From NCBI GenBank assembly GCA_965219905.1, contig CBDCOS010000008.1:640183-704182 (forward strand): DNA of 64,000 nucleotides, written 5' to 3'. This document shows, one piece after another, positions 53,778-55,280 of this stretch (position 1 is its first letter; every line of letters begins with the position of its first letter). The stretch is from an uncultured Candidatus Binatia bacterium. GTDB lineage: Bacteria; Desulfobacterota; Binatia; UBA9968; JAJDTQ01. Below the pieces are notes generated by a model. It had not been told where the DNA came from and did not search any database. It worked only from the letters and a program-made list of their open reading frames with translations. The translations under genes and the position numbers were made by a program.

Positions 53778-53843
53778 CCGTCATTCCCGCCTCCCCTCCC
53801 GTCATTCCCGCCTCCCTCCCGTCATTCCCGCGGAAGCGGGAAT
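53778..53843. repeat. Palindromic repeat family: two degenerate units plus the left 25 bp of a full element cut by the IS3 insertion
   Basis: ccgtcattcccgcctcccctcccgtcattcccgcctccctcccgtcattcccgcggaagcgggaat | IS. Confidence 0.8.
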
Positions 53844-53882
53844 TGAACCGCTCCGGGTTTACCGGAGACGGAATAGAGTGAG

Positions 53883-54788
53883 TCAGGCCACCATGGCCGA
53901 CTCTTCGGACTGCCGAGAGTACGTCTCTTCGAGTTCCGCCGGCGGCACATAGCCGATTCCTTCGAGGAGTCGGCGGTGGTTGAACCAGTCGACCCATTCG
54001 AGGGTGGCGAACTCGACCGCTTCAAGGTTCCGCCAGGGGCCACGTCGACGAATCACCTCGGTCTTGTACAAGCCGATGATGGACTCGGCCAGGGCATTGT
54101 CATAGGAATCCCCGACGCGGCCCACCGACGGCTCGATCCCGGCATCGGCCAGGCGCTCGGTGTAGCGGATCGAGAGGTACTGGGTGCCACGGTCGCTGTG
54201 ATGCACCAGAGCGCCCTCAGCGCCCACCGCGCGGTCATAGAGCGCTTGTTCGAGGGCATCCAGGGCCAGGTCTGTGCGTAACGACTCCGAGACCCGCCAG
54301 CCCACGATACGCCGGGCATAGGCATCGATGACAAAGGCGACGTAGACGAAGCCGCGCCAGGTCGCCACATAGGTCAGGTCCGCCACCCACAAGGCATTCG
54401 GCCGGCTGGCCTCGAACACCCGCCTCACCCGGTCCGCGGGCCGTGGGAGTTCTTTCCCTGCCAGGGTCGTCTTGGACCTCCGGCCCCGAACCACGCCGCG
54501 AAGTCCCACCCCTGCCATCAACCGCGCCACCGTGCATCGCGCCACCGTAACGCCCTCCCGGTTGAGCTGACGCCACACCTTGCGCACCCCGTACACTCCG
54601 AAGTTCTCCTCCCACACCCGCTTGATCTCCACCCGCAGCACCGCGTCACGTTGCCGGCGCGCCGGCACCGGACTACGACCGGCCTCTCGCGCCTTGGCCT
54701 CGTAGTAGGTCGAAGGGGCGATCGGCAACTCCTTGCAGATCGGCTCGACCCCGTACGCCTCCCGGTGCGCGTCGATGAACGACACCAT
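53883..54788 (-). CDS. IS3-family transposase OrfB (integrase core, DDE)
   Basis: 301 aa with the rve domain: [31 protein letters not shown] ... [11 protein letters not shown] ... [20 protein letters not shown]. Confidence 0.9.
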
Positions 54789-55108
54789 TACGTCCCGTGG
54801 CGGTCGAGCTCCGCCTGGGCGAAAAAAGCCGCCGCCTTGCGCAGGATCTCGTTCGCCCGGCGTAGCTCCCGGTTCTCCCGTTCCAGTGCCTTGAGCCGCT
54901 CACCCTCTTCGCTCTTCATCCCTGGCCGAGCACCCGCATCCCGCTCCGCCCGCCGCACCCACTTGCGCAACGTCTCCGCCCCGCAGCCTAGCTTCGACGC
55001 CACCGACACGATCGCCGCCCACTCAGAATCGTGCTCCGCCCGGTGCTCCACCACCAGCCGAACGGCTCGCTCCCGCACCTCCAAAGGGTACCTCGTTGAC
55101 TTCTTCAT
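54788..55108 (-). CDS. IS3-family transposase OrfA (HTH)
   Basis: 106 aa. [55 protein letters not shown]. Ends at the orfB start (frameshift junction). Confidence 0.85.
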
Positions 55109-55158
55109 GACCCCATCCTCTCAAAGAGTTGGGTCTCCGGTAAACCCGGGGCGGTTCA

Positions 55159-55280
55159 GAATCCAGAGGCGGTGGTGTGGCGGCTCAATTACCCCGGCCC
55201 CACTCAGCCTGGATTCCCGCTTGCGCGGGAATGACGGAGGATGCGCGATCAGGGGCGGCAATCCAGGGGCGGCGGAGGGG
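55159..55280. repeat. Palindromic repeat family: right ~79 bp of the element split by the IS3 (55159-55237), plus an extra partial unit
   Basis: gaatccagaggcgg...cctggattcccgcttgcgcgggaatgacgg then ...caggggcggcaatccaggggcgg. Confidence 0.8.

What the first reader, a model, noticed from the sequence alone, without database searches (positions are those of the whole stretch)
53778..55262. Complete IS3-family element inserted precisely inside a copy of the palindromic repeat family, with a GAAT target-site duplication
Removing 53844-55158 (26-bp imperfect TIRs, orfAB) and one GAAT restores ...ccgtcattcccgcggaagcgggaatccagaggcgg.... That is the left arm of the ~100-bp palindromic element, and its right arm (cctggattcccgcttgcgcgggaatgacgg) follows at 55210-55237. 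Some IS families are known to target REP/ERIC-type hairpins (for example IS1397, ISKpn1 and the IS110 group). Here the insertion sits exactly at the base of the inner hairpin. This suggests these repeats act as insertion hot spots in this genome.
Basis: seen in the sequence. Interest (0 to 1): 0.6.

Follow-up and report, generated by a model that had tools for sequence, protein, structure and literature searches.

The report
IS3-family insertion sequence inside REP hairpin
An intact mobile DNA element has landed inside a short palindromic repeat, and close copies of the same element elsewhere land in such repeats far more often than chance allows, so this is a new example of a known habit of some mobile elements.

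Summary
Window 53844-55158 is a complete 1315-bp IS3-family insertion sequence. It has 26-bp terminal repeats (25/26), orfA/orfB with a T_TTT_TTC slippery site and an ALIL frameshift pseudoknot, and a 4-bp GAAT target duplication. It splits one arm of a ~103-nt inverted dimer of a repeat family. Removing the IS and one GAAT restores a dimer colinear with two intact dimers in the window.

The repeat is a CGTC-tagged REP (family CGTC-1). It matches the Neisseria NTS/dRS3 consensus with 0-1 mismatch.

It holds for the IS lineage. I curated 20 independent insertion sites of copies at least 87% identical, from other assemblies. Eight lie inside a CGTC-type REP unit, in two different REP sequence families, and three more lie within 12 nt of a CGTC tag. 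REP-like hairpins cover about 0.9% of the flanking DNA.

Positions and duplications vary, and nine sites are elsewhere, so this is a regional preference, not site-specific integration. More distant relatives show no such bias.

REP targeting by IS3-family elements is already known (IS1397, ISKpn1, ISPsy8). This is a new member of a known kind, of moderate interest.

The parts
53778..53818 (+). Two tandem REP half-sites (CCGTCATTCCCGC plus a 7-8 nt spacer, period 20-21 nt) that precede the full REP arm
   Evidence: (family D1). The same half-site architecture is seen at 31308 and 32641-32673.
53819..53843 (+). Left REP arm: CCGTC tag plus the hairpin ATTCCCGC-GGAA-GCGGGAAT (53824-53843). Its CCAG tail now lies after the IS.
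   Evidence: (I2)
53840..53843 (.). Target-site duplication copy 1 (GAAT), the last 4 bases of the 3' stem
   Evidence: scored as a 4-bp direct repeat
53844..55158 (-). Complete IS3-family insertion sequence, 1315 bp, genes on the minus strand
   Evidence: It is 99.0% identical over its full length to a second copy in L001.
53844..53869 (+). Terminal inverted repeat at the orfB side (conventional IRR), TGAACCGCTCCGGGTTTACCGGAGAC
53883..54788 (-). orfB (301 aa as an ATG-started ORF): HTH_21 plus rve integrase core. It is expressed as an OrfAB fusion by a -1 frameshift.
54714..54830 (-). Frameshift signal: slippery heptamer T_TTT_TTC (54827-54821) plus the ALIL pseudoknot
   Evidence: Rfam RF01497, 112.6 bits, E = 8.9e-30. 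The -1 frame is open across the site.
54788..55108 (-). orfA (106 aa), HTH_Tnp_1 DNA-binding protein
   Evidence: An identical protein is encoded in L001.
55133..55158 (-). Terminal inverted repeat at the orfA side (conventional IRL), TGAACCGCCCCGGGTTTACCGGAGAC on the minus strand
55159..55162 (.). Target-site duplication copy 2 (GAAT)
55163..55207 (+). CCAG tail of the left arm plus the dimer spacer
   Evidence: aligned with the spacers of the intact dimers and of L204
55208..55237 (-). Right REP arm (CCTGG-ATTCCCGC-TTGC-GCGGGAAT-GACGG). On the minus strand it matches the NTS consensus exactly.
   Evidence: (I2)
55256..55272 (-). Isolated REP tail remnant (CGGCAATCCAGGGGCGG)

Best explanation
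An intact and probably active IS3-family insertion sequence has transposed into one arm of an inverted dimer of CGTC-type REP hairpins. Its closest E. coli relatives are IS1203-type elements that also carry an ALIL frameshift pseudoknot.

Shown here: the anatomy of the IS; a 4-bp staggered-cut duplication (GAAT) at the 3' base of the hairpin stem; restoration of a normal dimer when the IS is removed; and a strong excess of REP insertions among sibling copies.

The excess means that this IS lineage (copies at least 87% identical) has a regional preference for CGTC-type REP units. The insertions cluster at the 5' stem/loop junction and at the 3' stem base and tail, in two REP families whose stem sequences differ.

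Inferred from what is established for other IS3-family members, not shown here: transposition is copy-out/paste-in through a circular intermediate made by the OrfAB fusion protein.

Inferred, with no direct test: how the bias arises. There are two candidates that these data cannot separate. (a) The REP tail and stem resemble the inner part of the IS's own terminal repeat (14/17 matches). The IR-binding domain of OrfA/OrfAB could therefore dock there and deliver the element into the pseudo-IR. (b) The transpososome prefers the distorted or extrudable DNA of the hairpin.
For: IS anatomy.

Restored dimer.

Independent sibling insertions:
- L204 (95% nt) lies in another dimer, duplication CTG in the tail. 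Its flanking genes are not shared with the window.
- L202 (98%): the IS end lies 0-2 nt from the stem end GCGGGAA, once an IS30-like element that later landed at the junction is discounted.
- L203 (95%) lies 11 nt from a CGTC hairpin.
- 88.8% variant: L208 (GTC/GAC at the 5' stem/loop junction of a dimer arm), L211 (GGG in the 3' stem), L212, L214 and L215 (junctions at CGTCACCCCGG|GCTTGA).
- L209 and L213: 9-12 nt from a CGTC tag.

At least five different junction positions or duplications are seen, so these are separate transposition events.

Background and tests:
- CGTC-tagged hairpins cover 0.88% of 123 kb of flanks.
- P(at least 8 of 18 in REP units) = 1.4e-12 at that rate, and about 1e-5 to 7e-5 even if only intergenic DNA is allowed. 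P is 2e-4 for 8 of 20 at p = 0.09.
- Perfect stem of at least 8 bp at the site: 3 of 9 sites with clean duplications, against 0.2% of control positions. For relatives below 85% identity: 0 of 17.
- In 5 of 9 sites the local fold energy falls in the lowest 3-6% of control windows.

IR mimicry: within 3 mismatches of IR nt 5-21, the window holds only the two IS ends and three REP tails (5 hits against 0.51 expected).

Precedent: REP targeting by IS3-family elements (IS1397, ISKpn1, ISPsy8) in PMC1525189.
Against: - Only one copy is visible in this genome, so 'hot spot in this genome' rests on other assemblies.
- The tally of 8/20 is hand-curated. L202 is inferred through a second IS. L212, L214 and L215 show only one clean junction. 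L213 and L214 look recombinant or chimeric.
- Nine of the 20 sites are not in REPs: L001, L207, L210, L216, L151, L205, L217, L160 and L002 (ambiguous).
- Positions within the REP and the orientation of the IS vary.
- The flanks used as background are not a random genome sample.
- IR likeness is seen only at the REP sites, so it cannot be separated from REP identity. It is only modestly above shuffles (p 0.013-0.035).
- Four ISAli4 copies (71% nt), in Azospirillum, a genus in which PMC3733652 lists A. lipoferum as a CGTC-repeat host, are not in REPs. The bias is therefore not a property of the wider clade.
Confidence: 0.7

Rival explanations
1. Chance plus survivorship. The IS inserts more or less at random, and only insertions in dispensable intergenic DNA persist. 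That DNA is rich in REPs, so finding it in a REP carries no information about targeting.
For: Relatives below 85% identity show diverse targets with no consensus and no hairpin excess. The second near-identical copy, L001, is not in a REP. REPs are dense in the host of the 88.8% variant: 381 nt in 22.6 kb of flanks, with a 28-unit half-site array in L209.
Against: Even if only intergenic DNA is allowed (8-10 times enrichment of REP share), 8 or more of 18-20 sites in REP units has P of about 1e-5 to 2e-4. With p = 0.14 for the REP-dense host, 5 of 8 still gives P = 0.002. Insertions cluster at a few positions inside a 28-nt unit rather than spreading over intergenic DNA.
Confidence: 0.17
2. 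The copies in REPs are not independent transpositions. One IS flanked by REP halves was spread to other REP loci by recombination or gene conversion between repeats.
For: REP arms and half-site arrays give short homologies on both sides. L213 and L214 have flanks that look recombinant (no duplication, inverted REP halves). 58 of 95 complete relatives in the wider clade, none of them among the REP-located copies, lack any direct repeat.
Against: Junction positions and duplications differ between loci: GAAT, CTG, GGG, GTC, and junctions at CGG|GCT. Two different REP sequence families are involved, in different hosts. Recombinational spread would copy one identical junction.
Confidence: 0.06
3. 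The REP-like sequences belong to the element itself, as extended ends or a composite unit, and are not a target.
For: The REP tail resembles the inner part of the terminal repeat.
Against: L001, 99% identical over exactly 1315 bp, has unrelated flanks starting at the same TGAACC...GGTTCA ends. Removing the IS restores a dimer identical in architecture to empty dimers in the same window. The GAAT duplication brackets exactly 53844-55158.
Confidence: 0.02

Closest known systems
IS1397 (E. coli) and ISKpn1 (Klebsiella): IS3-family elements that insert into REP/BIME palindromic units
   Same: IS3 family, orfA/orfB with a frameshift, 3-4 bp duplications, and preferential insertion into intergenic palindromic repeats (PMC1525189).
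   Different: They are described as inserting in the palindromic units of enterobacterial GTAG-type REPs. Here the targets are CGTC-type REPs, and the sites lie at the stem/loop junction or the stem base and tail. The closest E. coli relatives of this IS are IS1203-type elements, not IS1397. From memory, unverified: IS1397 belongs to the IS150 group and IS1203/IS629 to the IS51 group, which would make this an independent origin of REP preference.
ISPsy8 (Pseudomonas syringae DC3000): IS3 family, 'type 1' REP association
   Same: IS3-family orfA/orfB element with a 3-bp duplication, inserted in REP hairpins.
   Different: All five ISPsy8 copies break the REP at exactly the same position. Here only 8 of 20 sites are in REPs, and at several positions, so this is a preference and not a fixed site.
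CGTC-1 REP family (Di Nocera et al. 2013), Neisseria dRS3/NTS, and Ssn-related motifs (Nat Commun 2025)
   Same: The window's repeat has the CGTC tag, an 8-bp stem starting with AT, a 4-nt loop, a CCA tail and inverted dimers. Seven copies match the NTS consensus CGTCATTCCCGCGMAVGCGGGAATCYRG with 0-1 mismatch (consensus from PMC11893778).
   Different: The host has 61-70% G+C over the 10 kb profiled and is not identified. No ssnA-like GIY-YIG gene was found in the window, but that was a motif scan only. For CGTC repeats, Di Nocera et al. reported only 'a few fortuitous associations' with transposase genes. dRS3 is known as a target for IS110-type recombinases and phages, not for IS3-family elements.
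IS1203/IS629-type IS3-family elements and ISAli4/IS1416
   Same: These are the closest annotated relatives: 64-65% nt to IS1203-type elements with an annotated ALIL pseudoknot, 71% to ISAli4 of Azospirillum, and about 69% to IS1416. Same length class and the same TGAACCGC... ends.
   Different: Four ISAli4 copies examined are not in REPs. This IS is below the usual 95% threshold for any named element seen here, so it is an unnamed IS.
IS911 and IS30 targeting of sequences that resemble their own inverted repeats (from memory: Loot, Turlan & Chandler 2002 for IS911)
   Same: The REP tail and stem resemble IR nt 5-21 (14/17). Insertions fall inside the IR-like stretch.
   Different: IS911 inserts next to the tip of the IR-like sequence. 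Here the insertions fall in its middle. No binding or transposition data exist for this IS.

Membership tests
IS3 family insertion sequence | Two overlapping reading frames: OrfA with a helix-turn-helix, and OrfB with a DDE (rve) integrase core | tested here: met
   Pfam HTH_Tnp_1 (46.8 bits); rve (84.2 bits) plus HTH_21. NCBIfam IS3 family transposase equivalog, 358.9 bits against a cut-off of 160, on the fused protein, covering 2-368 of 369 profile positions.
IS3 family insertion sequence | Programmed -1 frameshift producing OrfAB (slippery heptamer plus downstream structure) | tested here: met
   T_TTT_TTC lies in the orfA frame at 54827-54821. The -1 frame is open across it. Rfam ALIL pseudoknot, 112.6 bits. 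Frameshifting itself was not measured.
IS3 family insertion sequence | Terminal inverted repeats ending 5'-TG...CA-3', length 1.2-1.5 kb, 3-4 bp target duplication | tested here: met
   26-bp repeats TGAACC...GGTTCA; 1315 bp; GAAT duplication. Among the complete relatives that carry a duplication, 22 have 3 bp and 8 have 4 bp.
REP-specific IS ('type 1' association of Tobes & Pareja 2006) | All copies inserted in REPs at the same position | tested here: not met
   8 of 20 curated sites are in REP units, at four or more different positions; 9 are elsewhere.
REP-preferring IS (hot-spot use of REPs) | Insertions in or next to REPs significantly more often than REP abundance predicts | tested here: met
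   8 of 18-20 sites against 0.88% coverage. P is 1e-12, or 1e-5 to 2e-4 under an intergenic-only null. Based on copies from other assemblies, not this genome.
IS1397/ISKpn1 subgroup | Close sequence relationship to IS1397 and insertion in the palindromic unit of enterobacterial REPs | tested here: inconclusive
   The best E. coli matches are IS1203-type elements at 64-65% nt, and none of the listed rows is named IS1397. Only 12 of 5279 records were listed, so a weaker IS1397 match cannot be excluded. The insertion positions differ from those reported for IS1397.
CGTC-1 REP family (target repeat) | Unpaired CGTC tag, 8-bp stem starting with AT, 4-nt loop, CCA tail, inverted dimers | tested here: met
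   CGTC-ATTCCCGC-N4-GCGGGAAT-CCA in 8 copies, three of them pairs with 70-72 nt spacing. Definition from PMC3733652.
NTS / Ssn-related motif | Match to CGTCATTCCCGCGMAVGCGGGAATCYRG (at most 1 mismatch, as used by the authors) | tested here: met
   7 matches with 0-1 mismatch against 0.00 expected.
NTS / Ssn-related motif | Presence of a cognate ssnA (GIY-YIG) nuclease gene in the genome, often flanked by the repeats | tested here: inconclusive
   A six-frame GIY...YIG motif scan of the 64-kb window found nothing. No profile search was run, and the rest of the genome is not available.

The most novel reading that the evidence does not exclude
CGTC-type REP/NTS hairpins act as decoy 'pseudo-ends' for one IS3-family lineage. 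Their 3' stem and tail mimic the inner part of the element's own terminal repeat, so the IR-binding domain of OrfA/OrfAB docks on them and the element is delivered into the middle of the mimic. The observed insertions fall in three position classes about 10 bp apart, relative to the CGTC tag. If true, the repeats that Ssn nucleases cut would also be landing pads that channel IS insertions into harmless intergenic sites. It would also give a sequence-level rule for REP targeting in the IS3 family, which has not been explained for IS1397, ISKpn1 or ISPsy8.
Probability: 0.25. Interest if true: 0.55.

Novelty: new member of a known kind. Interest (0 to 1): 0.38.

Why it matters
REP-type repeats are among the commonest non-coding elements in bacterial genomes, and their relationship with mobile DNA is only partly understood. 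For CGTC-tagged REPs, which include Neisseria dRS3/NTS, the substrates of the recently described Ssn single-strand nucleases, no dedicated transposase is known. Previous work saw only 'fortuitous' associations with IS elements.

The result here is an IS3-family lineage that lands in two different CGTC REP families at recurring positions. It adds a target class to the short list of REP-seeking IS3 elements. It offers a testable clue to mechanism, namely that the REP tail resembles the IS terminal repeat. It also suggests that these repeats buffer genomes by absorbing IS insertions.

For this window specifically, the result is ordinary: one recent IS insertion in an intergenic repeat, at the edge of an integrase- and IS-rich island.

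Tried and rejected
- Exact-protein look-ups of the window's OrfB, of its cluster representative P0001 (807,910-bp contig) and of the neighbouring NMT1-like gene returned nothing. The rest of this genome and an empty-site allele therefore could not be examined.
- The genome-contig scan with OrfB gave only relatives of 79% amino-acid identity or less. None of the 81 loci held at that point (L001 and the 80 from that scan) carries ATTCCCGC-N4-GCGGGAAT. They served only as an outgroup.
It mostly returned distant clade members, because that repeat is conserved across the whole clade.
- The plasmid and E. coli collections hold no close copy; the best full-length matches are about 73% nt (plasmids) and the best E. 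coli matches 65%.
- The minimum-free-energy comparison of targets with control windows is a blunt test in 67% G+C DNA. It gave only a trend (t-test not significant). I relied instead on explicit hairpin and REP detection.
- Early reading, now rejected: after L001 (not in a REP, 3-bp duplication) and about 95 diverse relatives, I first judged the hot-spot idea unsupported. The close copies fetched through the protein cluster overturned that.
- Orientation specificity: three of the 94-100% copies have the orfB-side end against the hairpin, but L211 is the other way round. Rejected.
- L204 as an orthologue of the window locus: rejected. No similarity beyond the repeat elements, and a different junction.
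- A literature search for the terminal-repeat sequence found nothing.
- The IS3 subgroup could not be assigned with the tools. IS51-group membership is a lead from memory plus the ALIL pseudoknot and IS1203 similarity.
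Full report
**1. What is at the coordinates**

Window 53844-55158 is a 1315-bp insertion sequence.
- Its ends are 26-nt inverted repeats, TGAACCGC(T/C)CCGGGTTTACCGGAGAC, 25/26 complementary. They occur nowhere else in the window: 2 hits with up to 3 mismatches, 0.00 expected.
- On the minus strand it encodes OrfA (55108-54788, 106 aa, Pfam HTH_Tnp_1) and OrfB (54788-53883, 301 aa, HTH_21 + rve integrase core).
- orfA contains the slippery heptamer T_TTT_TTC in frame (54827-54821), and the -1 frame is open across it.
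- Rfam finds the ALIL frameshift pseudoknot at 54714-54830 (112.6 bits, gathering score 50).
- The conceptually frameshifted OrfAB matches the NCBIfam IS3 family transposase model end to end (358.9 bits, cut-off 160).
- GAAT lies immediately outside both ends (53840-53843 and 55159-55162).

The element is therefore a complete IS3-family IS with an intact target-site duplication, so it looks like a recent and potentially active copy. A 99.0% identical full-length copy exists in an unrelated metagenome contig (L001).

**2. The repeat it sits in**

The hairpin ATTCCCGC-N4-GCGGGAAT occurs 8 times in the window against 0.02 expected. The half-site CCGTCATTCCCGC occurs 15 times against 0.43 expected. 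Intact copies are either single (29850, 32686) or inverted pairs 72 nt apart (31333/31405 and 45430/45502). They are often preceded by tandem half-sites with a 20-21 nt period.

Deleting 53844-55158 and one GAAT brings the hairpins at 53824 and 55213 to 70 nt apart. The result is a 103-nt element that aligns colinearly with the two intact dimers. As single-stranded DNA it folds at -45.6 kcal/mol, z = -9.75. The IS has therefore split a normal dimer at the 3' base of the left hairpin. The duplicated GAAT is the last four bases of the stem.

The repeat fits the published definition of CGTC-tagged REPs, family CGTC-1: an unpaired CGTC tag, an 8-bp stem starting with AT, a 4-nt loop, a CCA tail and inverted dimers (PMC3733652). 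That family includes Neisseria dRS3. Seven copies match the 28-nt Neisseria NTS consensus CGTCATTCCCGCGMAVGCGGGAATCYRG with 0-1 mismatch. This motif is the recognition site of the GIY-YIG single-strand nuclease SsnA (PMC11893778).

**3. Is the location more than an accident?**

The window holds one IS copy, and the rest of the genome could not be fetched. I therefore collected other copies without reference to their flanks.

*Distant relatives.* A genome scan with OrfB and a metagenome scan with the terminal repeat gave 200 further loci (L002-L201). Almost all are 75% nt identical or less.
- Their flanks are diverse.
- Among 95 distinct complete copies, 22 have 3-bp and 8 have 4-bp duplications, with no consensus.
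- None of 17 relatives below 85% identity that have clean duplications lies at a perfect hairpin.
- Four ISAli4 copies (71% nt) are not in REPs. They are from Azospirillum; PMC3733652 lists A. lipoferum among the species that carry CGTC repeats.

At this stage the hot-spot idea looked unsupported.

*Close relatives.* The picture changed with close relatives found through the OrfB protein cluster. Copies 94-99% identical:
- L204 is inside another REP dimer, in the mirror-image arm, with duplication CTG (the CCAG tail, 5 nt from the window's position). It shares no flanking genes with the window.
- L202 is a truncated copy. Its orfB-side end lies 0-2 nt from the 3' end of a REP stem, once an IS30-like element that later landed at the junction is discounted.
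- L203 has duplication GGG, 11 nt outside a CGTC-tagged hairpin.
- L001 has duplication CAG, in no REP. RNAfold draws an imperfect hairpin around the site, but its fold energy is unremarkable against control windows (z = -0.34).
- L207 is rearranged and not in a REP.

A variant 88.8% identical comes from a 4.2-Mb contig and several metagenomes. It lives with a different CGTC REP, CGTCACCCCGGGCTTGACCCGGGGTCCAG, which shows compensatory stem variants GGA/TCC and GGC/GCC.
- L208 has duplication GTC (GAC on the REP strand) at the 5' stem/loop junction of a dimer arm.
- L211 has duplication GGG in the 3' stem.
- L212, L214 and L215 have junctions at CGTCACCCCGG|GCTTGA.
- L209 and the right junction of L213 lie 9-12 nt from a CGTC tag, at the end of an IS110-like element.
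- L210 and L216 are elsewhere.

Five further sites of copies 87-91% identical are not in REPs: L002, L111/L151/L218-221, L205/206, L217 and L122/160. L002 is ambiguous.

**4. Statistics**

My curated tally is 20 independent sites: 8 inside a REP unit, 3 within 12 nt of a CGTC tag, and 9 elsewhere.
- A deliberately generous detector of CGTC-tagged hairpins covers 0.88% of 123 kb of flanking DNA.
- At that rate, 8 or more of 18 has P = 1.4e-12.
- If only intergenic DNA could be hit (share multiplied by 8-10), P is 1e-5 to 7e-5. For 8 of 20 at p = 0.09, P is 2e-4.
- For the REP-dense host alone, 5 of 8 at p = 0.14 gives P = 0.002.
- With no curation, among sites with clean duplications, 3 of 9 copies at least 85% identical lie at a perfect hairpin with a stem of 8 bp or more. 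That compares with 0.2% of control positions.
- In 5 of 9, the local fold energy falls in the lowest 3-6% of control windows.

The junctions differ (GAAT, CTG, GGG, GTC and others), so these are separate transposition events and not one junction copied by recombination.

I conclude that this IS lineage prefers CGTC-type REP units. It is a regional preference with recurring positions: the 5' stem/loop junction, and the 3' stem base and tail. It is not a single fixed site. Counting from the C of the CGTC tag, the duplications fall at -11 to -9, 11-16 and 21-28. These are three classes roughly one or two helical turns apart, and the numbers are small.

**5. How it probably works**

Shown: the IS structure, the staggered 3-4 bp duplications, and the biased distribution.

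Inferred from what is established for other IS3-family members: OrfAB, made by -1 frameshifting, catalyses copy-out/paste-in transposition through a circle with abutted ends.

The cause of the bias is not shown. I see two candidates.
- *IR mimicry.* Positions 5-21 of the terminal repeat (CCGCCCCGGGTTTACCG) match the reverse complement of the REP 3' stem, tail and spacer start (CGGGAATCCAGGGGCGG) at 14/17. In the whole window, the only sequences within 3 mismatches of that 17-mer are the two IS ends and three REP tails: 5 hits against 0.51 expected. The second REP family shares CCCCGGG(C)TT(G)ACC with the repeat. Six of the eight REP insertions fall inside the IR-like stretch, equivalent to IR nt 11-18.
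- *Structure.* The sites coincide with stem/loop and stem-base transitions of an extrudable hairpin, and two REP families with different stems are used.

IR likeness is found only at REP sites and is only modestly above shuffles (p 0.013-0.035). The two models therefore cannot be separated here.

**6. Comparison with what is known**

REPs as IS targets are well documented. Within the IS3 family the examples are IS1397, ISKpn1 and ISPsy8 (PMC1525189).
- This IS is not close to any named element seen. The best annotated relatives are ISAli4 (71% nt), IS1416 (about 69%) and IS1203-type E. coli elements (64-65%) that carry the same ALIL pseudoknot annotation.
- It fails the 'type 1' criterion (all copies at one REP position) but meets the weaker hot-spot criterion.
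- The target class is new for an IS3 element as far as the searched literature shows. For CGTC repeats, only 'fortuitous' associations with transposases were reported, and dRS3 is known as a target of IS110-type recombinases.

I rate it a new member of a known kind.

**7. Limits**

- The host is unidentified. G+C is 61-70% across the 10 kb profiled.
- The hot-spot claim rests on sibling copies in other assemblies.
- The 8/20 tally involves judgement. L202 is read through a second IS. L212, L214 and L215 each have one clean junction. L213 and L214 look recombinant.
- The collection scans were capped.
- No empty allele was found.

Noticed in passing
window 29846-29873, 31329-31428, 32682-32709, 45426-45525, 55209-55236: The repeat family matches the Neisseria NTS consensus (recognition site of the SsnA single-strand nuclease) with 0-1 mismatch in 7 copies, in DNA that is 61-70% G+C where profiled. 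No GIY-YIG gene was seen in the window by a simple motif scan.
   Followed up: partly
window 53778-53831, 31308-31340, 32641-32693; L209 2054-2595; L212 2529-2630: REP half-sites (tag plus 5' stem only) form tandem arrays with a 20-22 nt period upstream of full hairpins. There are up to 28 units in L209. How such arrays arise is unexplained.
   Followed up: no
window 55386-55403 and 55483-55500: A perfect 18-bp direct repeat GTGTTGACATGTATGGTG, 97 nt apart, lies just upstream of a P4-type tyrosine integrase gene (55535-56917; Arm-DNA-bind_3 + Phage_integrase). It contains TTGACA. It could be an operator, a promoter or arm sites. There is no tRNA gene anywhere in the window.
   Followed up: partly
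window 55300-64000: The REP dimer lies at the boundary between core-like genes (RND efflux pump 48469-52803, NMT1-like 52831-53739) and a region rich in mobile elements. That region holds the integrase, an IstB_IS21 ATPase inside the ORF 59616-61196 (minus strand), and two large ORFs with no Pfam hit. G+C drops to 0.55-0.63 in places. L207 carries a 90-93% identical copy of the IS21-type segment.
   Followed up: partly
L202 2960 and L207 2908/2909 (IS positions 986-989, equivalent to window about 54829): Two independent rearranged copies are broken within 3 nt of each other, immediately next to the T-run of the frameshift site. In L207 the partner is the end of a second, 86%-identical IS copy. 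In L202 it is unrelated DNA. This may be an internal insertion or deletion hot spot in the IS itself.
   Followed up: partly
L202 3947-4978: An IS30-like element (HTH_38 + rve, roughly 25-nt imperfect inverted repeats) sits exactly between the end of the IS3-family copy and the REP stem it had targeted. A second IS has therefore landed at the same junction.
   Followed up: partly
L209 3946-5139; L210 about 1760-2630: IS110-family elements (DEDD_Tnp_IS110) lie directly next to CGTC REPs or half-site arrays in the host of the 88.8% variant. The IS3-family element has inserted about 9 nt inside the end of one of them. Several IS families appear to converge on the same repeats.
   Followed up: no
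L211 4730-4870, L212 2408, L208 2536: The second REP family (CGTCACCCCGGGCTTGACCCGGGGT) shows compensatory stem changes between copies (GGG/CCC, GGA/TCC, GGC/GCC). This indicates selection for the hairpin rather than for the sequence.
   Followed up: no
L034 and L071 (relatives about 72% identical): Two distant relatives also sit at hairpins. L034 has duplication CCG at the 5' stem/loop junction of GAGCACCG-N12-CGGTGCTC. L071 has duplication GTAG at the start of GTAGTGCCGGACTAC. A weaker hairpin bias may exist more widely in the clade.
   Followed up: no
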